Below, in pieces: positions 2 through 7,415 of a stretch of 64,000 bases of DNA. The DNA is from Candidatus Cloacimonadota bacterium (lineage in GTDB: Bacteria > Cloacimonadota > Cloacimonadia > Cloacimonadales > TCS61). The stretch is from positions 9,809-73,808 of the forward strand of contig JAUXIJ010000001.1 in NCBI GenBank assembly GCA_030621085.1, in the 5' to 3' direction. The translations under genes and the position numbers were made by a program. How positions within the stretch are numbered: the first letter of the stretch is position 1; the number at the start of each line of letters is the position of its first letter. Below the pieces are notes generated by a model. The model saw nothing but the letters and a program-made list of their open reading frames with translations, ran no database searches and was not told where the DNA came from.

Positions 2-1954
2 GATCTGAGTGAGGAGGATAAAAAACGTGAAGTTAATAGATCATTGACCTACAATGCCAATATTAATATCAGCCAGGATAAAACTCCCAAAAGTAAGATA
101 CTTGCCTATACTATTAAAAATACAACCCTTTATTCCAGCATAGAAAAAAAGAAAACCCTCTCAGCCACCAGTGCCGATACATCCCTTACCTGGAACTTGA
201 GACACACCTACAAGCTTACCTTCAATAAAGATGATGTTGATATCGGTTTAGGAGGTAATTATAAATTCTTCTTTTTCCCGCAGTCTTTCAATAATAGCAT
301 TACCTATACGGATGCTGACCCCAAACGCTGGTATTGGGAATCTTATACAGATTCCATTCCGCACTGGGTTGTGCGAAGCAATACCACACGAACCCGAACA
401 CTCGACACAGCTACAAATATAAAATATGATATTTTCAGTGATATTTCTTCTTCATACAACCTGACCACAAAACGGGATCTGATGTTGAGAAATTACTGGA
501 AGAAATATAATATTGGAGAAGAAAAAAAACGTATTCAGGATATCGGATTGGAATACAATCCGAAATATCTGGATAATATTTTTGGGTTCGATGTAGATAC
601 AAGTGTGAATTATAATGAAGACCATATTAAAATTGGAACGCAGGATACATTGTATTACAAAGGAAATGTTACACGAAAGATAGGTGGCAGCTTTACCTTG
701 AAAAACCATGACCTTTTACATAGTCTGGCAACCTGGCTAGATAAAAAACTAAGTTTGGAACCACCTAGTACTCAGGAGTTGGAGATGGAAGAAGAAGAGC
801 GGGAAAAATTTGAACAAACTCGTAAAAACATGCTTGAAGATCAAAAGTTTGACGAAGAAGAATTAGGAAGAGAACAGATTGAAGATGAAACAGATTTAGG
901 AGATGATTCTCAGGAAGAATCCCGTGATGAGACCACTCTGAAACCAGCCGAAGGACAAGAACCCGAAACTGTAAAAAAAGAAGATGATATAATTCCCGGA
1001 AAAGACAAGGAAGAGATCGAAGCTCTTAAAAGAAAAAAGAACATACTGGCTTCAATTGCAGGTTATATTAGCAGGATAGAAAATATTACCGTAAATTACG
1101 ATAATACTTATAAAACTACTTATGATGACAGAAAAGAACGACCTGATTTTCTATATCAACTCGGGCTGCCGCATATTCTGAATGAGACCGGTGATAACAA
1201 AGAAATACTATCCAAAAATATTAACGAAAAAATATCTACTTCTGTGGGATTTCCTATTTTGAACAACTTGAGCACGAATTATGGATATTCCATGGAAATA
1301 AAGCGTAGCTTTGGTAACTACAGCAATATGTCTGTTACTACAACTTTTCCCAATATAAGTGTGGTTTTAAGTGAGTTTGAAAAACTGATTAAAAGTGAAA
1401 AAATTCTTACAAGTTCCCGTCTGACCAGCAGCTATGTCTATTCTATTATTGAAGATGGAGACCTGGATTTTACCAGTCCGGATAGAGAGACTATCAGGAC
1501 AAACTTTAATCCGCTGCTTTCCTGGCATGGTAATTGGGTTCATAATATTACCAGCAGTTTGAGTGCTAATTATTCCGATTCAAAAACAATAACCCATTAT
1601 ACCAGTTCAGAGAACCGATCAATAACACAATCGCTGGCTGCACATCTCGAATGGTCTTTTGCGGCAGCTAAAGGATTAAAGATACTTTTCTTTAAAAGAA
1701 CAAAGCTGAAAAATGAACTTACCACACAACTCAATTTTAACCTGGAAAAAACACTCGCTACTATAAAGGGTCGTGAAACATCTGAGGAAACCACTAATAA
1801 GATCAAATATACTATTAGCCCGGGTGCTTCGTATAAATTCAGTAAAAATATTTATGGCGGCTTGACCAGTAATTACGAATGGATTAATGATCGTAAACGT
1901 GAGCAGGAAACAAACACTTTCAGCCTGAGTATCTGGGTCGAAATAATGTTCTAA
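2..1954 (+). CDS. Large outer-membrane beta-barrel protein, C-terminal ~650 aa (5' end lies upstream of the window). A SprA-like T9SS translocon is one possibility.
   Basis: The frame is open from nt 2, with no in-frame stop before the TTG at 44, so the ORF is cut by the window edge. The sequence is S/T/N/Y-rich with an alternating beta-strand-like pattern. It ends ...FSLSIWVEIMF, with the C-terminal Phe typical of BAM-dependent OMPs. The SprA idea rests only on size and on the T9SS cargo genes in the window. Confidence 0.6.
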   Translation, partial: DLSEEDKKREVNRSLTYNANINISQDKTPKSKILAYTIKNTTLYSSIEKKKTLSATSADTSLTWNLRHTYKLTFNKDDVDIGLGGNYKFFFFPQSFNNSITYTDADPKRWYWESYTDSIPHWVVRSNTTRTRTLDTATNIKYDIFSDISSSYNLTTKRDLMLRNYWKKYNIGEEKKRIQDIGLEYNPKYLDNIFGFDVDTSVNYNEDHIKIGTQDTLYYKGNVTRKIGGSFTLKNHDLLHSLATWLDKKLSLEPPSTQELEMEEEEREKFEQTRKNMLEDQKFDEEELGREQIEDETDLGDDSQEESRDETTLKPAEGQEPETVKKEDDIIPGKDKEEIEALKRKKNILASIAGYISRIENITVNYDNTYKTTYDDRKERPDFLYQLGLPHILNETGDNKEILSKNINEKISTSVGFPILNNLSTNYGYSMEIKRSFGNYSNMSVTTTFPNISVVLSEFEKLIKSEKILTSSRLTSSYVYSIIEDGDLDFTSPDRETIRTNFNPLLSWHGNWVHNITSSLSANYSDSKTITHYTSSENRSITQSLAAHLEWSFAAAKGLKILFFKRTKLKNELTTQLNFNLEKTLATIKGRETSEETTNKIKYTISPGASYKFSKNIYGGLTSNYEWINDRKREQETNTFSLSIWVEIMF

Positions 1955-2023: not shown

Positions 2024-2051
2024 TTGACATTGTTAGAAATCAAAATAAATT
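2024..2051 (+). promoter_or_regulatory. Candidate sigma70-type promoter for the MCE operon
   Basis: TTGACA (2024-2029), a 16-nt spacer, then TAAATT (2046-2051). The AAGGAG RBS at 2064 and the ATG at 2075 follow. Confidence 0.3.
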
Positions 2052-2074: not shown

Positions 2075-2986
2075 ATGGTGAGTAGTGCGCAGAAATTCAG
2101 GTTAGGAATTTTTATTGTTGTGTTTTCTGTTCTGATGATAATCTTTCTGGTTCTGGTGGCAGGCAGCAAGATCATGGAAAAACGTGATGTTTACTATATT
2201 CGTTATGAAAATACTTCAGTTTCCGGTTTGCAGATAGGTGGTCCGGTAAAGTATCGCGGTATTGGCATCGGACGGGTAGACGATATTACAATTGATACTG
2301 AAGATGTAACCAGTATTATTGTAAAGGTAAGTGTAAAATCAGAAACTCCCATCAAAGAGGATATGCGAGCTTCCCTGATTCCCATTGGTATTACCGGTCT
2401 GCTGCAGGTGGAAATAACCGGTGGCAGTACGGAAGCGTCTTTTATGAAAACAAAATCTTTTATCCCGGCTGGTGTTTCCACTTTCGAAAGCATTTCGGGG
2501 AAAGCAGAAATTATAACAAAAAAAATGGAAATTCTTCTACACAATATAGGAGAGATAACAAATAAAGAAAACCAACGGAAGCTGAATAACATTCTCTCAA
2601 ATGTAGATTCTATTATAAGTAAAAATCAACAACCAGTATCAGATATTGTTTCTAATCTGGATAGGGTTACTGTAGAATTGGATGAGATTACCAAAGAATT
2701 GAATGCTATTCTGCAAACAGGAAAAATGCAGAAGGCTATTTCCAATGCAGAAAGAATATCCAGTGATATTGCAGAAGCAGATATCAGTACTCTATTGAAC
2801 GACCTCAATAAAGCAATAAAAAAAATGAATGTAACACTTGCTCATATCGATGCAACTCACTTGGAGAGCAGGCAGGATATTTTAGATACCATCGAAGCTT
2901 TGAAGGAGACCATGGAGTATTTAAATGATTTTTCCCGACAGATAAGTGACGATCCGTCGCTTCTTATCAGGACCAGGAAAAAATAA
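2075..2986 (+). CDS. MCE/MlaD-family protein (N-terminal TM anchor, MCE domain, long helical C-terminal region)
   Basis: An AAGGAG RBS precedes the start. N-terminal TM segment: LGIFIVVFSVLMIIFLVLVAG. MCE-domain signature: SGLQIGGPVKYRGIGIGRVDDI. The gene sits in an operon with MlaE and MlaF homologues. Confidence 0.8.
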   Translation: MVSSAQKFRLGIFIVVFSVLMIIFLVLVAGSKIMEKRDVYYIRYENTSVSGLQIGGPVKYRGIGIGRVDDITIDTEDVTSIIVKVSVKSETPIKEDMRASLIPIGITGLLQVEITGGSTEASFMKTKSFIPAGVSTFESISGKAEIITKKMEILLHNIGEITNKENQRKLNNILSNVDSIISKNQQPVSDIVSNLDRVTVELDEITKELNAILQTGKMQKAISNAERISSDIAEADISTLLNDLNKAIKKMNVTLAHIDATHLESRQDILDTIEALKETMEYLNDFSRQISDDPSLLIRTRKK

Positions 2987-2991
2987 TAGGG

Positions 2992-5133
2992 ATGTGTATT
3001 ATGAGTAAATTTGGAATTCTGTTTTTTGGTATATTATTTATTTTATTATTGGGTTGTTCGGCAGGAGAATTAGTATCTCCTAACTACTATATTCTAGAAT
3101 ATTATCAGCATTCCGAAAAGGAAGAACTGCGTCAGGATACTCCGCTTGACCTTTCGGTTTATGTGTATGACACTAAGATTCCCAAAACCTATAATAAGAA
3201 CCAGATCGTGATCAGGCATTTCGGTCCCCGTATAACCTATTCGGATTATGATCTCTGGGGTGTTAAACTTTCCAAAACTATTCCCGAACTTATCTCTAAA
3301 AGACTGAACAGCTATAATATCTTTAAACGAACTCAAAGAGAAATCCTCACTACTCGGGCCGATTATGAGATCATTACAAATCTTAATAATATTGAACTTT
3401 ACAGATCGGAAACTGTACAACAGGCTCGTTTGAACATAGATTTTATTTTTAGAAAAAGCGAACAGGCAGATATACTTGTCGAGCATTCCGTAAATATAGA
3501 AAAAGTTTTGCTGTCTGATGATGTGGATACTTTTGTACAGACGATAAATAATATGCTTCTAAATGAAACCGATAACTTTATCAGGAAAATAATTATATAT
3601 TCTGCATTGGATGCTGAGGCTGTTCTTCCCCCCATCATAACAAAAGAAGCAGCAGAACCATTGATATTTGAAATTTCTGAAGAAGAAGAAATAAGTGGTG
3701 GAAAAGGATTACTTTTGCTTCCTGCCATAACTCGCACAGATAATGAACCACACTACAAGATAATCGACAAATACGGATATGAACAATCTGGACAAATGGG
3801 AACGGCAATTCCTCTTCTGGAAGGGATCTACAGTATTAAATATGGCTCGGGGAAAGCCAATCAACTGATGGAACAGGATAATATCAAGGTAATACCAAGG
3901 TATAAAACTATCATCGAACCCGATTGGGGATGCCTGATAGTTGATATTATAGATGAAAAACGAAACTTTGCCAAAGTAAGATATGAAGTGTTCGATCTGG
4001 AAGATGGTGAAAGTTTCGGTAGCGAATTTCCGGCTGAAGAAGAGGTGGGAGAGCAGGAAAAGGTATGGGTTTTAAAACCGGGTATTTATAAAGTTACAGT
4101 TAATAATGAACCCTTTAATACTTATCGAGATTTCACAACAATTTATGTGGAAAAAGGTAAAGTACAGAAATTAACGATAGTCATGAAAACCGACGAGGAA
4201 GATAATCCCACAAATATGGCTGGAGCCGGTGTTTTGGAGGAAAGCTTCTTGGAAGCATCACTGGCAAATCTCAAGTTTTCCAGCGCTATTCACTGCAATG
4301 TGAATATTAACAGTAACAACGAAGTAGATAAAGATAATCCGGAAACAACGATCACTATTAACAACCAATTGGAAAACTACCTGATCTACGATAAAGATCC
4401 ACTTCACTACACCATGAAGAACCTGATAGAAGTAGGTATATCTAAAACCACTGATACCGATTTTCGACTAGCCGTAGATGAATTTGACCTGAAAAATACA
4501 TTGATTTATTATTTCATCAAAGATGTCGGCTTTTACAGCCGATTCGATATGCATTCCCATTTCTTTCCTGAAAAATCTTACAATTCAGATAAATTCTATT
4601 ACACAAAGATAAATGAGGATAATATTGCGGCAGATTCTGTTTTTGCAGATGAAATAGAGATAAAATCTTCACTCTTCCCGCTGGTTCTGAAAGAAGGGAT
4701 CGGTATCAACTACAGAATATTGAATTTCTCCAGAGCTAATCTGAGCTTGAGAGCTGGTTTCGGCATCAGGCAGGACATCAATAATGATTTTTATCAACTT
4801 GCAAGTGAAAGTACCTGGTTTGATTCTCAGGAGATTGAGCATAGAACCTATAATGAAATGGAATCTGAAAGTACGACCGGTACAGAAGTCTCCCTGGTAG
4901 GGAGTTTTCAGCTTCCCTTTAACCTGACCTATAGTACGAATGCCGACTTTCTGTTTCCCTTCAGCAAAGATGATGATTATTCCATGGAGTGGGAAAATGT
5001 AATCAATCTGAAACTATTCAAATATATTTCATTGGATTATAAATTGAAACTTGAGAACAAAATTCAGGAAGATGATGAATATATTGTAGAAAAACATAGT
5101 CTTTTCCTGAGAGTAACTTACTTCCTGAGATAA
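2992..5133 (+). CDS. Lipoprotein with an N-terminal PqiC/DUF330-like ABC-transport auxiliary domain, fused to a middle beta-rich domain and a C-terminal putative OM beta-barrel
   Basis: Lipobox LLLGC|SAG. The NYYILEY... start and overall pattern resemble PqiC/YmbA over about 200 aa. The C-terminal ~300 aa has alternating hydrophobic beta-strand periodicity and ends ...LFLRVTYFLR. An alternative start is the ATG at 3001. Confidence 0.6.
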   Translation: MCIMSKFGILFFGILFILLLGCSAGELVSPNYYILEYYQHSEKEELRQDTPLDLSVYVYDTKIPKTYNKNQIVIRHFGPRITYSDYDLWGVKLSKTIPELISKRLNSYNIFKRTQREILTTRADYEIITNLNNIELYRSETVQQARLNIDFIFRKSEQADILVEHSVNIEKVLLSDDVDTFVQTINNMLLNETDNFIRKIIIYSALDAEAVLPPIITKEAAEPLIFEISEEEEISGGKGLLLLPAITRTDNEPHYKIIDKYGYEQSGQMGTAIPLLEGIYSIKYGSGKANQLMEQDNIKVIPRYKTIIEPDWGCLIVDIIDEKRNFAKVRYEVFDLEDGESFGSEFPAEEEVGEQEKVWVLKPGIYKVTVNNEPFNTYRDFTTIYVEKGKVQKLTIVMKTDEEDNPTNMAGAGVLEESFLEASLANLKFSSAIHCNVNINSNNEVDKDNPETTITINNQLENYLIYDKDPLHYTMKNLIEVGISKTTDTDFRLAVDEFDLKNTLIYYFIKDVGFYSRFDMHSHFFPEKSYNSDKFYYTKINEDNIAADSVFADEIEIKSSLFPLVLKEGIGINYRILNFSRANLSLRAGFGIRQDINNDFYQLASESTWFDSQEIEHRTYNEMESESTTGTEVSLVGSFQLPFNLTYSTNADFLFPFSKDDDYSMEWENVINLKLFKYISLDYKLKLENKIQEDDEYIVEKHSLFLRVTYFLR

Positions 5134-5134
5134 G

Positions 5135-6208
5135 ATGAAATACGAAAATCAGATATTGTTCCTGGATGGGAAATTAACCAAATTCACCGTTCCCGATCTT
5201 CTGCATGAGTTGCTTCAGTATAAGGGAAAGAAGATAAATACGATAGATCTTTCAGGAGTAAGTTCCATCGATAGTGCCGGGACGGCATTTCTGGATGAAC
5301 TTGTATTGAATCTGCAGGATTTCAAACCGCAGCTTGTAAATATGAGCAAGATCGTAGAAAGTGCTGTTTCCACCTTTTCTTCACTGTCCATAAAAAAACC
5401 TGTTTCCGGCAGAAAAGAAAATTTCTTTATTTCGATAGGAGAGGGACTATTAAGATGGAGAGATTCAGTCCGGGAGGCAATTTACATGGTCGCAGATATC
5501 TTTTATTGGTCTTTTGTGGGCTTGTTCAATAGAAAGAATCAACGCAAAGGTTCGATCATCCAGCAAAGCCTTATCATTGGTGTGGATGCAGGTGGTATAA
5601 TTGCTCTACTCTCCTTCATACTGGGCTTGATCCTGGCTTTGCAGTCGGCTGCACAATTACGCCAGTTCGGTGCCAATATTTTCGTGGCAGATCTGATAGC
5701 CATTTCCATGGTAACAGAGATGGGTCCTATTTTAACGGCGATTATCCTGGCAGGCAGAAGTGGTTCTTCAATTGCTTCCGAAATTGCTACCATGAAGGTT
5801 ACAGAAGAGATAGATGCTCTTCGAATGATGGCGATAAATCCTATTAGATATGTAGTAGTCCCCAAGTTCCTCGCTATTACTATCTGTATACCGCTGTTGG
5901 TCACCTTGTCTACTCTGGTGGGAATTTTTGGTGGTTTGCTTATTGCTATTACTTATCTCGATCTCAGTGCTGTGGTTTTTTTCGATCGTGTATTCGAGGT
6001 ACTTACGACGAAGGATGTTTTGGTTGGACTTGGAAAAAGTTTTTTCTTTGCCTGGGCGATAGTGATAATTGGCAGCTATTATGGATTTAAAGTGAAAGGT
6101 GGTGCCGAAGGTGTAGGAAAAGTTACTACTCAATCGGTGGTTGCTTCCATTTTCTGGGTAATTATCTTGGATGCCATAAGCAGTTTAATTTTTTATTTTA
6201 AAGTATGA
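5135..6208 (+). CDS. mlaE: MlaE-family ABC permease with an N-terminal STAS (MlaB-like) domain
   Basis: Core MlaE motif: TAIILAGRSGSSIASEIATMKVTEEIDALRMM, plus multiple TM helices. The first ~95 aa (LDGKLT...IDLSGVSSIDSAGTAFLDEL) look like a STAS / anti-sigma-antagonist fold. Confidence 0.85.
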   Translation: MKYENQILFLDGKLTKFTVPDLLHELLQYKGKKINTIDLSGVSSIDSAGTAFLDELVLNLQDFKPQLVNMSKIVESAVSTFSSLSIKKPVSGRKENFFISIGEGLLRWRDSVREAIYMVADIFYWSFVGLFNRKNQRKGSIIQQSLIIGVDAGGIIALLSFILGLILALQSAAQLRQFGANIFVADLIAISMVTEMGPILTAIILAGRSGSSIASEIATMKVTEEIDALRMMAINPIRYVVVPKFLAITICIPLLVTLSTLVGIFGGLLIAITYLDLSAVVFFDRVFEVLTTKDVLVGLGKSFFFAWAIVIIGSYYGFKVKGGAEGVGKVTTQSVVASIFWVIILDAISSLIFYFKV

Positions 6209-6948
6209 AAGAACCAATAATTTCAGTCAGAGATCTGGTTTCAAAATTTGGTGAACAAACCATTCTGCACGATGTCTCTCTGGACATCTATCCCCGGGAA
6301 ATAACTGTTATCCTGGGCAGGAGCGGTTGCGGTAAAACAACACTTGTAAAAAATATCTTACAACTATTTCAACCAAATTCAGGTTCTGTAAAGATTTTTA
6401 ATAAAGAAGTAACCACAATGGACGAATTGGAATTTAATTCAATGCTTAGCAAGATCGGTATGCTTTTCCAAAATGGAGCTTTACTAAATTCGCTCACTAT
6501 TTTCGATAATGTTTCCATTCCCCTGGAGCAGCATACGGAGCTTTCGGTAGATATCATTGCCAGAATGATACGTGTGAAACTGAAGCTGGTTGATCTTACC
6601 CAGGCTGAAAATATGCTACCGGCAGAGCTTTCAGGAGGGATGAAAAAACGCGCCGCACTGGCCAGGGCAATTGCCCTGGATCCTGTTATCCTGATCTGCG
6701 ATGAACCTTCGGCCGGACTCGACCCACTGACAAGTGCCTCGCTTGATGAACTTATTCTAAAATTGAAAAATCTACTTAAAATGACCATTGTAATCGTAAC
6801 ACACGAACTGGCCAGTATTCACAGAATTGCCGACAGGATAATTTTCCTAGATGAGGGAAGAGTGCTTTTCTCGGGGACATTACAAGAAGCCAAAAAAACC
6901 TCTATCCCCGAAGTAGAAACCTTCTTCCGGGTTGGGAAATTTGGATAA
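6205..6948 (+). CDS. mlaF: MlaF-type ABC transporter ATP-binding protein
   Basis: Walker A GRSGCGKTT, ABC signature LSGGMKKRAALARA, Walker B ILICDEP. ATGA start/stop overlap with mlaE. Confidence 0.9.
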   Translation: MKEPIISVRDLVSKFGEQTILHDVSLDIYPREITVILGRSGCGKTTLVKNILQLFQPNSGSVKIFNKEVTTMDELEFNSMLSKIGMLFQNGALLNSLTIFDNVSIPLEQHTELSVDIIARMIRVKLKLVDLTQAENMLPAELSGGMKKRAALARAIALDPVILICDEPSAGLDPLTSASLDELILKLKNLLKMTIVIVTHELASIHRIADRIIFLDEGRVLFSGTLQEAKKTSIPEVETFFRVGKFG

Positions 6949-7415
6949 TGAAGGAACTAAAACCAAAATTCCTGCTCGATGAGAACTTGAACAGATTAGC
7001 CAGGTGGTTGCGCATGCTGGGCTATGATGCAGCCGTCTATGAGAGTGTGAGTATTCACAATAAAGTTCGTCTGGCTAAAAAAGAGAGAAGAATATACCTG
7101 ACCAGAAGCAAAAAAACAGCAAAATTAAAAGAAGAATTTTCACGGTTTTTGATCAGGGCAGATGATCATCAGCACCAATTGGGAGAATTAAGACAATTCC
7201 TAAAGTTTAATGATGATTTTATCTTTACCCGTTGTATTAACTGCAATAGAAAATTAGAGAAAATTTCCAAAGAGAAAATAAAGGAAATTATTCTGCCTAA
7301 TATTTACAAAACATTCAATGAATTCAACATCTGCCGCAAATGCGGTAAGGTCTATTGGAAGGGTTCACATTATGCTTCAATGAAAAGACAACTCAAGAAT
7401 ATGTTGACAATATAA
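6948..7415 (+). CDS. Mut7-C RNase domain protein (PIN-like fold plus C-terminal zinc ribbon)
   Basis: N-terminus KFLLDENLNRLARWLRMLGYDA. C-terminal CINCN...CRKCGKVYWKGSHY. This is the characteristic Mut7-C/DUF82 layout. The start overlaps the mlaF stop (TAATG). Confidence 0.75.
   Translation: MKELKPKFLLDENLNRLARWLRMLGYDAAVYESVSIHNKVRLAKKERRIYLTRSKKTAKLKEEFSRFLIRADDHQHQLGELRQFLKFNDDFIFTRCINCNRKLEKISKEKIKEIILPNIYKTFNEFNICRKCGKVYWKGSHYASMKRQLKNMLTI

What the first reader, a model, noticed from the sequence alone, without database searches (positions are those of the whole stretch)
2992..5133. A PqiC-like lipoprotein fused to a putative OM beta-barrel inside an MCE (Mla/Pqi-type) operon
In E. 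coli, PqiC (DUF330) is a ~190-aa OM lipoprotein that caps the PqiB MCE tube. Here a lipoprotein starts with a PqiC-like ~200-aa module (lipobox, NYYILEY, matching hydrophobic pattern). It then continues for another ~500 aa, ending in strand-periodic sequence that resembles an integral OM barrel. This would physically fuse the periplasm-spanning lipid transporter to its OM exit. I am not aware that this architecture has been characterised.
Basis: partly seen in the sequence, partly recalled or inferred. Interest (0 to 1): 0.6.

Follow-up and report, generated by a model that had tools for sequence, protein, structure and literature searches.

The report
PqiC lipoprotein fused to outer-membrane barrel
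This gene joins the outer-membrane "cap" lipoprotein of a lipid-transport machine to a membrane-spanning barrel that most related bacteria encode as the next gene, which points to a so far undescribed outer-membrane partner for this class of transporters.

Summary
ORF 2992-5133 (+) encodes a 713-aa lipoprotein inside the operon MCE / this gene / STAS-MlaE / MlaF.

- **Residues 23-207** are a PqiC/DUF330 domain, by Pfam above threshold, fold match and profile match.
- **Residues 208-235** form a disordered linker.
- **Residues 236-415** are two transthyretin/PEGA-like beta-sandwiches.
- **Residues 425-713** are a predicted outer-membrane (OM) barrel of about 14 strands, related to DUF481 and DUF3078.

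The neighbouring MCE protein's best match among solved structures is PA3213. The operon is therefore a PA3211-PA3214 / Brucella Mpc-type "Mla-Pqi chimeric" system.

The sandwich+barrel module was found only in such operons. It is a separate gene in the same operon, in nearly all cases right beside the PqiC gene, in 69 of 80 loci from Fibrobacterota, Latescibacterota, KSB1, Calditrichota, Myxococcota and others. It is fused in most Cloacimonadota and in many Myxococcota. A tree test rejects a single origin of the fused forms.

I read the module as the dedicated OM partner of the PqiC-like ring, present 1:1. A 2026 structural paper still calls that partner unknown, and I found no paper describing this architecture. 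Databases name these proteins only "PqiC family" or "DUF481". It is a new variant of a known kind. Whether the barrel anchors the ring or conducts lipid is unresolved.

The parts
2024..2051 (+). Sigma-70-like promoter candidate (TTGACA-16-TAAATT) in the 120-nt gap before the operon. AAGGAG lies 5 nt before the ATG at 2075.
   Evidence: This is a consensus match only; the number of such sites in the region is no higher than in shuffled sequence.
2075..2986 (+). MCE protein of 303 aa: N-terminal TM helix, one MCE domain (residues 40-117), a long helical 'needle', and the C-terminal motif DDPSLLIRT.
   Evidence: PF02470 at 50 bits. The NCBIfam PqiB model aligns residues 39-300 to PqiB profile positions 280-529 of 542. 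The best PDB sequence match is PA3213 (13hr_I), E 7e-16, over residues 5-278. The motif [ED]NPSLL[LI]RG is conserved in most of the 73 orthologues listed, across phyla.
2992..3057 (+). Signal peptide and lipobox (LLGC, Cys22). The likely true start is the ATG at 3001.
   Evidence: A lipobox is present in 40 of 45 fused family representatives. A LolA homologue is present in the genome.
3058..3612 (+). PqiC-like (PF03886/DUF330) alpha/beta domain, residues 23-207.
   Evidence: Pfam 32.3 bits against cut-off 26. Foldseek matches 2iqi, 8q2c and 6osx at TMt 0.81-0.86. The profile matches XCC0632 at 1.4e-12 and PA3214 at 3e-10.
3613..3696 (+). Acidic disordered linker, residues 208-235. It takes the place of the signal peptide that the barrel protein carries in split systems.
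   Evidence: pLDDT is below 50 over 208-235. Linker length varies between lineages.
3697..4236 (+). Tandem transthyretin/PEGA-like beta-sandwich module, residues 236-415.
   Evidence: The separate AF2 model has pLDDT 93.8 and pTM 0.87. Foldseek matches pilins, Bacteroides fimbrial proteins, TIE and transthyretin. There is a weak Pfam PEGA hit.
4264..5130 (+). Predicted integral OM beta-barrel, residues 425-713: about 14 membrane strands, plus a hairpin in the long loop 597-625.
   Evidence: One search gives the strands. One search gives matches to OmpG, FapF, EstA and FadL. One search shows the alternating hydrophobicity and short turns. DUF481 scores 23.6 bits against cut-off 21.1 and DUF3078 scores 19.1 bits. 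Of 35 family members, 30 match DUF481 and 29 match DUF3078.
5135..6208 (+). STAS (MlaB-like) domain fused to the MlaE permease, 357 aa.
   Evidence: PF02405 at 251 bits plus weak STAS hits. TIGR00056 is above its cut-off. The STAS extension is found in MlaE of other phyla.
6205..6948 (+). MlaF-like ABC ATPase, 247 aa.
   Evidence: PF00005 at 109 bits. The best NCBIfam model is MlaF, below its own cut-off.

Best explanation
The 713-aa protein is the outer-membrane subunit of a four-gene MCE lipid transporter of the PA3211-PA3214 / Brucella Mpc type.

**Proposed assembly**
- STAS-MlaE and MlaF form the ABC engine in the inner membrane.
- The 303-aa MCE protein forms a hexameric ring with a helical needle across the periplasm.
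- The tip of the needle docks in a ring of PqiC-like domains. These are lipid-anchored through Cys22 to the inner leaflet of the outer membrane.
- Each PqiC-like domain is tied, through a flexible linker of about 28 aa and a rigid pair of beta-sandwich domains, to its own beta-barrel of about 14 strands in the outer membrane.

The sandwich+barrel module is a dedicated partner of PqiC-like lipoproteins in this subfamily. Most lineages encode it as the adjacent gene, and Cloacimonadota and Myxococcota fuse it.

**What is shown:** domain identities, operon membership, and the strict and ancient linkage of the module to PqiC and MCE genes, with repeated fusion or fission.

**What is inferred:** the ring, the docking and the topology, all by homology to PA3213/PA3214.

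**Favoured role of the barrels (about 55%).** A fusion fixes the ratio at one barrel per PqiC protomer, which would mean about eight barrels around one tunnel. I therefore favour barrels that act as integral anchors, or a fence, holding and orienting the ring at the membrane and possibly perturbing the bilayer around the tunnel mouth. I consider a role of the barrel lumen as the lipid path less likely (about 30%).
For: **Domain identities**
- PqiC domain.
- Barrel.
- Sandwich module.

**System type**
- The MCE protein's best PDB match is PA3213, over nearly its full length.
- The PqiB model aligns through the needle region.
- MlaE and MlaF are identified.
- The genome has no MlaA or MlaC hit.

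**Linkage of the module to PqiC and MCE genes**
- Four of four stand-alone sandwich+barrel proteins looked up lie directly downstream of a separate PF03886 gene, and the three loci with enough flank also carry MlaE/MlaF, two of them a called MlaD as well.
- Of 80 loci from about 10 phyla, 69 have the split arrangement, 6 are fused, and 5 show no PqiC domain, four of them cut close to a contig end. Nearly every locus with enough flank carries MCE, MlaE and MlaF.
- Among the best 150 representative clusters, 47 are fused and 86 are split.
- In Cloacimonadota, 137 of 151 genomes carry the gene. By my reading of the match table, about 122 are fused and about 13 split.

**Repeated fusion or fission**
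- The fused state needs at least 3-5 changes on the tree.
- The AU test rejects one fused clade (delta lnL 495, p 5e-43).

**Signal sequences fit the model**
- Fused forms keep a lipobox, while stand-alone barrel proteins carry ordinary signal peptides.
- LolA is present.

**A candidate docking peptide**
- The tail motif [ED]NPSLL[LI]RG is conserved on the MCE partner.
- In PA3213 and PqiB, C-terminal peptides bind a groove on the OM-facing side of the lipoprotein ring (PMC13631591).

**The literature leaves the slot open**
- PMC13631591 states that PqiC-like proteins are not known to bind porins and proposes unknown OM partners.
Against: - There is no experimental datum for any member of this subfamily.
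- The whole-chain pTM is 0.44, so the arrangement of the domains is unknown.
- The chain ends in ...TYFLR and not in a terminal aromatic residue, which is not the textbook barrel-assembly signal.
- The DUF481 match is marginal and covers only part of that profile. The DUF3078 match in the window protein is below its cut-off.
- Octamer formation by the fused PqiC domain is assumed from homologues.
- Lumen-facing charged and glycine residues of the barrel are highly conserved. This could mean the lumen has a function beyond anchoring.
Confidence: 0.75

Rival explanations
1. The barrel is the actual lipid gate. Together with the PqiC ring it extends the MCE tunnel into or through the outer membrane. 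Lipids would enter or leave through the barrel lumen or a lateral opening, as in LptDE, FadL or PelBC.
For: - Foldseek matches include FadL and OmpG, both 14-strand barrels.
- Lumen-facing residues (G513, Y515, R517, D519, K567, G569, G571, N573, R575, R587, G589, G591, E632) are invariant or nearly so in the family.
- PMC13631591 raises a PelC-PelB-like arrangement as a possibility.
- The genome lacks MlaA, so some other way to reach the OM lipids is needed.
Against: - The fusion fixes one barrel per PqiC protomer. Several barrels would then surround a single central tunnel, and none would be coaxial with it.
- The barrel is tethered by a disordered linker plus a sandwich module. It is not packed on the PqiC domain in the model.
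- Lumen residues are more conserved than lipid-facing ones in most barrels, so that signal is weak.
- No lateral gate could be examined.
Confidence: 0.3
2. The system moves a hydrophobic substrate across the outer membrane, to the surface or from outside. In this reading it does not traffic phospholipid between the two membranes, and the barrel serves as an import or export pore.
For: - PMC13631591 says it is unclear whether these systems stop at the OM or cross it.
- Mycobacterial Mce systems import lipids (general knowledge).
- One related locus sits beside a large lipid-synthesis gene (L009).
Against: - Neighbouring genes outside the five core genes differ from one related locus to the next.
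- All extracellular loops of the barrel are short except one, which leaves little surface for substrate capture.
Confidence: 0.15
3. The C-terminal region is not a membrane barrel. It would be a soluble beta-rich periplasmic domain that structure prediction wrongly closes into a barrel.
For: - Closure was not verified geometrically.
- The C-terminus is not a canonical aromatic end.
Against: - The region has long strands of 11-18 residues with alternating hydrophobicity and pLDDT mostly above 80.
- Hundreds of Foldseek hits are OM barrels.
- Two Pfam families, DUF481 and DUF3078, which I recall as OM-barrel families, match most members.
Confidence: 0.04
4. The fusion is an assembly or frameshift artefact, or a chance juxtaposition of an unrelated porin gene.
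For: One same-genus genome has an in-frame TAA in its copy.
Against: - About 195 homologues have the same length.
- About 122 genomes of the phylum carry one open frame.
- The same pairing occurs in about 10 phyla, always inside MCE operons.
Confidence: 0.01

Closest known systems
Pseudomonas aeruginosa PA3211-PA3214 MCE system (Giacometti et al., J Biol Chem 2026, PMC13631591; PDB 13HQ/13HR/13HS)
   Same: - MlaE/MlaF-type ABC engine.
- A single-MCE protein of about 300-310 aa with a helical needle. The window's MCE protein matches PA3213 at E 7e-16 over nearly its full length.
- A PqiC-like lipoprotein. The profile of the N-terminal domain matches PA3214 at E 3e-10.
   Different: - PA3214 is a stand-alone lipoprotein of about 210 aa, and no barrel partner is known for it. 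The authors list an unknown OM partner as an open possibility.
- Here the lipoprotein carries, or is followed by, a sandwich+barrel module of about 480 aa.
- STAS is fused to MlaE here.
Brucella abortus MpcEFDA 'Mla-Pqi chimeric' system (Lannoy et al., EMBO J 2025, PMC12436622)
   Same: The same four kinds of component and the same proposed trans-envelope bridge, with a PqiC-like cap on an MCE needle.
   Different: No barrel component is described. Mpc is reported as conserved in Hyphomicrobiales.
E. coli PqiABC, with the PqiC octameric toroid (PMC10897342; PDB 8Q2C)
   Same: The fold of the N-terminal domain (Foldseek TMt 0.83), the lipoprotein nature, and the cap-on-needle role.
   Different: - The inner-membrane partner there is PqiA, not an ABC transporter.
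- PqiB has three MCE domains.
- Sequence similarity is only weak (E 0.02 with the profile).
- There is no barrel.
Veillonella parvula long MlaD with a C-terminal OM beta-barrel (Grasekamp et al., Nat Commun 2023, PMC10665443)
   Same: An MlaEFD-type system in which a covalently attached small OM barrel anchors the periplasm-spanning assembly. One barrel per protomer implies several barrels around one tunnel.
   Different: - There the barrel has 10 strands and sits on the MCE protein itself, and no lipoprotein is involved.
- That study found no MlaD barrel in the FCB and PVC groups.
- Here, in FCB-group phyla, the barrel is supplied through the PqiC-like partner.
MlaA-OmpC/F, LptD-LptE and PelB-PelC lipoprotein-barrel pairs
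   Same: An OM lipoprotein works together with an OM barrel at the outer end of an envelope transport pathway. LptE, PelC and CsgG share the PqiC-like alpha/beta core, according to PMC13631591.
   Different: - Stoichiometry and geometry differ. LptE plugs one LptD barrel, and twelve PelC protomers sit under one PelB.
- Here the fusion implies a 1:1 ratio with a ring-forming lipoprotein.
- The barrels are not homologous as far as tested.
Pfam DUF481 (PF04338, E. coli YdiY family) and DUF3078 (PF11276) barrels
   Same: The C-terminal half of the barrel matches DUF481 and the N-terminal part matches DUF3078, in most family members.
   Different: - The matches are partial and near threshold.
- Those families are stand-alone proteins of unknown function without the sandwich module. 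As far as I know they have no MCE linkage (not tested).

Membership tests
PqiC-like / ABC_trans_aux lipoproteins (Pfam PF03886, DUF330) | Sequence match to the family model above the curated cut-off | tested here: met
   32.3 bits against cut-off 26, over residues 51-189. All 35 aligned homologues match. The profile of the domain hits XCC0632 at 1.4e-12 and PA3214 at 3e-10.
PqiC-like / ABC_trans_aux lipoproteins (Pfam PF03886, DUF330) | Alpha/beta fold of solved members | tested here: met
   Foldseek matches 2iqi at TMt 0.81-0.85, 8q2c at 0.83 and 6osx at 0.86, all at probability 1.00. pLDDT is about 80-91 over the domain.
PqiC-like / ABC_trans_aux lipoproteins (Pfam PF03886, DUF330) | Lipoprotein signal peptide with a lipobox cysteine | tested here: met
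   LLGC with invariant Cys22. 40 of 45 fused representatives have a lipobox. Lipidation itself is not testable here.
PqiC-like / ABC_trans_aux lipoproteins (Pfam PF03886, DUF330) | Encoded with a needle-forming MCE protein | tested here: met
   The adjacent gene 2075-2986 is the MCE protein, and its best PDB match is PA3213.
PqiC-like / ABC_trans_aux lipoproteins (Pfam PF03886, DUF330) | Homo-octameric ring with an OM-facing groove that binds the MCE C-terminal peptide | not testable with these tools
   Only single chains could be predicted and no coordinates were available. The conserved tail motif [ED]NPSLL[LI]RG on the MCE partner is compatible with this feature but is not a test.
Mla-Pqi chimeric MCE systems (PA3211-14, MpcEFDA) | Operon with an MlaE permease, an MlaF ATPase, a single-MCE needle protein and a PqiC-like lipoprotein, and no MlaA or MlaC | tested here: met
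   Searches identify the domains. One search shows gene spacing of 1-5 nt. Searches find no MlaA or MlaC in the genome, which is 97% complete.
Integral outer-membrane beta-barrel | An even number of long antiparallel strands with alternating lipid-facing hydrophobic residues, short periplasmic turns, and fold similarity to known OM barrels | tested here: met
   There are 16 DSSP strands, which I read as 14 transmembrane strands plus a loop hairpin. Foldseek matches OmpG, FapF, EstA and FadL at probability 1.00, with TMt up to 0.52.
Integral outer-membrane beta-barrel | Closed barrel geometry and a C-terminal aromatic assembly signal | tested here: inconclusive
The chain ends ...LRVTYFLR, with the aromatic residues Y and F at positions -4 and -3 and not at the terminus.
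DUF481 (PF04338) | Match above the curated cut-off | tested here: met
   23.6 bits against cut-off 21.1, but only profile positions 89-186 of 210 are covered. 30 of 35 homologues match at E <= 0.01. I treat it as related, not as an ordinary member.
DUF3078 (PF11276) | Match above the curated cut-off | tested here: not met
   The window protein scores 19.1 bits against cut-off 25. Some distant fused relatives pass, at 28-37 bits.

The most novel reading that the evidence does not exclude
The sandwich+barrel module is the long-sought outer-membrane partner of PqiC-type MCE tunnels. It would form a defined 1:1 complex with the PqiC ring and create the site where lipids are inserted into or extracted from the outer membrane. 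That site could be a lateral gate, or a protein-fenced lipid patch at the tunnel mouth. In this reading, barrel-less systems such as PqiABC and PA3211-14 would recruit an unlinked, still unidentified barrel in the same way.
Probability: 0.3. Interest if true: 0.85.

Novelty: new variant of a known kind. Interest (0 to 1): 0.64.

Why it matters
How MCE tunnels hand lipids to, or take them from, the outer membrane is an open question. The 2026 PA3213-PA3214 structure paper says PqiC-like lipoproteins have no known barrel partner and lists "unknown OM binding partners" as one of two possibilities (PMC13631591).

A gene pair that is fused repeatedly and is otherwise always adjacent is classic Rosetta-stone evidence for a physical partnership. 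It names a concrete candidate partner and fixes a 1:1 stoichiometry. It also offers tractable split-gene systems, for example in Fibrobacter, Caldithrix and myxobacteria, for pull-downs and cryo-EM.

The finding also fills a gap left by the Veillonella study. That study found no MlaD-borne barrels in the FCB group, and here the barrel arrives through the lipoprotein.

Tried and rejected
**Searches that found nothing or failed**
- A phmmer search of the whole protein against PDB sequences found nothing meaningful.
- A profile of the sandwich module against PDB sequences found nothing.
- The search for related loci with two broad alignments of the sandwich+barrel module failed for lack of a conserved 7-10-residue stretch. 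A narrower Fibrobacterota-type alignment worked.
- Model coordinates are not exposed to the Python box. Barrel closure, pore size and lateral gate were therefore not measured.

**Ideas considered and rejected**
- *The middle module is an LptA/AsmA-like lipid-binding beta-jellyroll.* Rejected. Foldseek gives only generic Ig/transthyretin-like sandwiches.
- *Mut7-C (6948-7415) belongs to the system.* Rejected. No homologue is found in the 80 related loci.
- *A paralogue of the barrel module or a second PqiC gene exists in this genome.* None was found.
- *The fused forms have a single origin.* Rejected by the AU test.

The promoter and terminator scans are no better than chance and carry no weight.
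Full report
**1. The observation**

The window holds an uninterrupted ORF at exactly 2992-5133 (+) of 713 codons. It lies in a tight gene row:
- an MCE/MlaD protein (2075-2986);
- this gene;
- a STAS-MlaE permease (5135-6208);
- an MlaF-type ATPase (6205-6948);
- a Mut7-C gene (6948-7415).

The gaps or overlaps between these genes are 1-5 nt. The product starts with a signal peptide and the lipobox LLGC. Met4 is nearly invariant and homologues are about 710 aa long, so the real start is probably the ATG at 3001. This does not change the mature protein.

**2. Domain anatomy**

*N-terminal domain.* Pfam places residues 51-189 in PF03886 (ABC_trans_aux = DUF330/PqiC), at 32.3 bits against a cut-off of 26.

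*Whole-chain model.* An AlphaFold2 model built on 35 homologues has mean pLDDT 81.9. It shows, in order:
- the signal helix;
- an alpha/beta domain (31-205);
- a disordered acidic linker (208-235);
- a beta-sandwich region (238-414);
- a short helix;
- 16 long strands (427-711).

*Fold search of that model against the PDB.* For the N-terminal domain it returns the DUF330 structure XCC0632 (2iqi, TMt 0.81-0.85), E. coli PqiC (8q2c, 0.83) and YmbA (6osx, 0.86). For the C-terminal part it returns OM barrels: OmpG, FapF, EstA, FadL and general porins.

*Profile search.* A profile of the N-terminal domain, built from fused and stand-alone versions, hits XCC0632 at E 1.4e-12 and P. aeruginosa PA3214 (13HQ/13HR) at 3e-10. 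The PDB codes are confirmed. E. coli PqiC is hit only at 0.02.

*Middle region.* Modelled on its own with 43 sequences it reaches pLDDT 93.8 and pTM 0.87. It is a rigid tandem of Ig/transthyretin-like sandwiches (pilins, Bacteroides fimbrial proteins, transthyretin). This fits the weak PEGA hit and the repeated "PG.Y.I..G" motif. It is not an LptA-like lipid-binding fold.

*Barrel.* Most strands alternate hydrophobic and polar positions, and turns alternate between short and slightly longer. The stretch 597-625 looks like one long loop holding a hairpin, so I read about 14 membrane strands. DUF481 matches the second half of the barrel, at 23.6 bits against a cut-off of 21.1. DUF3078 matches the first part, at 19.1 bits, below its cut-off. 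Of the 35 homologues, 30 match DUF481 and 29 match DUF3078.

I could not measure barrel closure, because coordinates are not exposed.

**3. What system this is**

The neighbouring MCE protein's best match among all PDB chains is PA3213, at E 7e-16 over residues 5-278 of 303. The NCBIfam PqiB model aligns it through the helical needle region.

Together with MlaE, MlaF and the PqiC-like domain, this is the PA3211-PA3214 architecture (PMC13631591) and the Brucella "Mla-Pqi chimeric" MpcEFDA architecture (PMC12436622).

The genome is 97% complete and behaves as follows:
- it has no MlaA or MlaC hit;
- it has one PF03886 gene and two MCE genes;
- it has a LolA homologue.

**4. The wider family: fused and split forms**

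*Close homologues.* The word-indexed search found 195 homologues of about 700-715 aa. Almost all the sources that give a name label them Cloacimonadota MAGs and call them "PqiC family" or "DUF481 domain-containing". The organism is therefore a Cloacimonadota bacterium.

*Distant homologues.* The exhaustive representative search gave 546 hits. I classified the best 150 with my own domain HMMs:
- 47 carry PqiC + sandwich + barrel;
- 86 are stand-alone sandwich + barrel proteins of 500-610 aa with ordinary signal peptides;
- the rest are fragments.

*Context of stand-alone proteins.* I looked up four of them. All four lie immediately downstream of a separate PF03886 gene. The three loci with enough flank also carry MlaE and MlaF, and two of them a called MlaD.

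*Genome scan.* A scan of one genome per species returned 80 loci. They come from Fibrobacterota (45), Myxococcota, Cloacimonadota, Latescibacterota, KSB1, Zhuqueibacterota, Eisenbacteria, Calditrichota, Bdellovibrionota and Raymondbacteria. Annotating them with iterated HMMs gave:
- 69 with a separate PqiC gene in the same operon as the barrel gene, in nearly all cases directly beside it;
- 6 fused;
- 5 showing no PqiC domain, four of them cut close to a contig end.

Nearly every locus with enough flank carries MCE, MlaE and MlaF, in the order E-F-D-PqiC-barrel or D-PqiC-barrel-E-F. A second fused lineage is myxobacterial: Kofleriaceae, Myxococcales and Bradymonadia.

*Within Cloacimonadota.* 137 of 151 sampled genomes carry the gene. 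By my reading of the table, about 122 have it as one frame and about 13 have it split.

*Signal sequences.* Fused forms keep the lipobox (40 of 45). Stand-alone barrel proteins lack one (64 of 70).

*Tree of the sandwich+barrel part.* The fused state needs at least 5 changes, and well-supported branches alone force 3. The AU test rejects one fused clade, with delta lnL 495 and p 5e-43. Fusion or fission therefore happened repeatedly.

**5. Mechanism**

*Shown.* The module is a dedicated, co-inherited partner of PqiC-like lipoproteins in MlaFE-MCE needle operons, and it can be covalently joined to them.

*Inferred from PA3213/PA3214.* The MCE hexamer's needle ends inside a ring of PqiC-like domains held at the inner leaflet by their lipid anchors. 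C-terminal MCE peptides bind the OM-facing groove.

The MCE partners in this family share a strongly conserved tail motif, [ED]NPSLL[LI]RG, a few residues from the C-terminus, across phyla. That makes it a good candidate for the docking peptide, but this was not tested.

A fusion forces one barrel per PqiC protomer, so several barrels must surround a single tunnel. This parallels the hexameric Veillonella MlaD, which carries one 10-strand barrel per chain (PMC10665443).

I therefore favour, at about 55%, a role as integral anchors or a fence that fix and orient the ring and perhaps disturb the bilayer at the tunnel mouth. A gate role through the barrel lumen or a lateral seam gets about 30%. 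It remains open because many lumen-facing charged and glycine residues are invariant. Direction and substrate are unknown.

**6. Comparison with what is known, and novelty**

[quoted passage not shown] The Veillonella study found no MlaD-borne barrel in FCB or PVC phyla and did not consider PqiC-like proteins.

Full-text searches for PqiC, DUF481, DUF3078, DUF330 and related terms found no description of this architecture. Databases carry the proteins only under automatic names.

Earlier notes of this scan describe the same architecture in other genomes and reach the same reading. They are not independent evidence, but I re-derived their main claims here.

I rate the finding a new variant of a known kind. 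It is a five-component class of MCE systems, or four-component when fused.

**7. Limits**

- There are no experiments for any member.
- There are no coordinates and no multimer model.
- The DUF481 match is marginal.
- The C-terminus is non-canonical (...TYFLR).
- The promoter and terminator scan is uninformative.

Noticed in passing
L091 (= G000:C104:40000-52000), minus strand 2195-6869: This is the genome's second MCE locus. An MlaF-like ATPase (6147-6869) and a 299-aa MCE protein (5237-6136) are followed by a 1008-aa protein with Peptidase_MA_2, PD40/TolB-like propeller and C-terminal Omp85 barrel domains. No MlaE lies beside it. It may be another MCE-barrel pairing, or it may be coincidence.
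   Followed up: partly
window 6948-7415 (+): The start of the Mut7-C RNase-domain gene overlaps the mlaF stop. No homologue occurs in any of the 80 related loci, so it is a local hitch-hiker and not part of the transporter.
   Followed up: partly
window 5135-5440 (+): The MlaB-like STAS domain is fused to the N-terminus of MlaE. The same extension is detectable in MlaE of Cloacimonadota, KSB1, Latescibacterota, Myxococcota and Calditrichota loci. It is a trait of this operon class.
   Followed up: partly
window 2940-2986 (+), and the MCE genes of L011-L090: MCE proteins of this operon class share a near-C-terminal motif, [ED]NPSLL[LI]RG, across about 10 phyla. It is a candidate for the peptide that docks into the PqiC-like ring.
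   Followed up: partly
window 2992-3003 (+): There are two in-frame ATGs, at 2992 and 3001. Homologues and conservation favour 3001 (MSKFG...), so the annotated protein is probably 710 aa.
   Followed up: partly
G083:C8:8599-10737 (same genus): The 94%-identical orthologue in a genome of the same genus contains one in-frame TAA. It is either a pseudogene or a sequencing error.
   Followed up: no
Cloacimonadota family 'f12' (genomes G002, G005, G008, G017, G023, G065): Six small (1.5-1.6 Mb), single-contig genomes of one genus lack the gene altogether, as do several genomes of genus g21. This suggests lineage-specific loss of the whole module.
   Followed up: no
L068 and L077; L061 and L072: MAG bins labelled 'Bifidobacteriales' and 'Cytophagia' carry this diderm operon. 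Their sequences cluster with Fibrobacteria and with KSB1/Zhuqueibacterota respectively. The bins are probably mislabelled or contaminated.
   Followed up: no
window 2-1954 (+): A large ORF, open at its 5' end, ends in ...VEIMF. It has strand-like sequence, an acidic insert of about 85 aa and no Pfam hit. It is probably another OM barrel protein just upstream of the operon.
   Followed up: no
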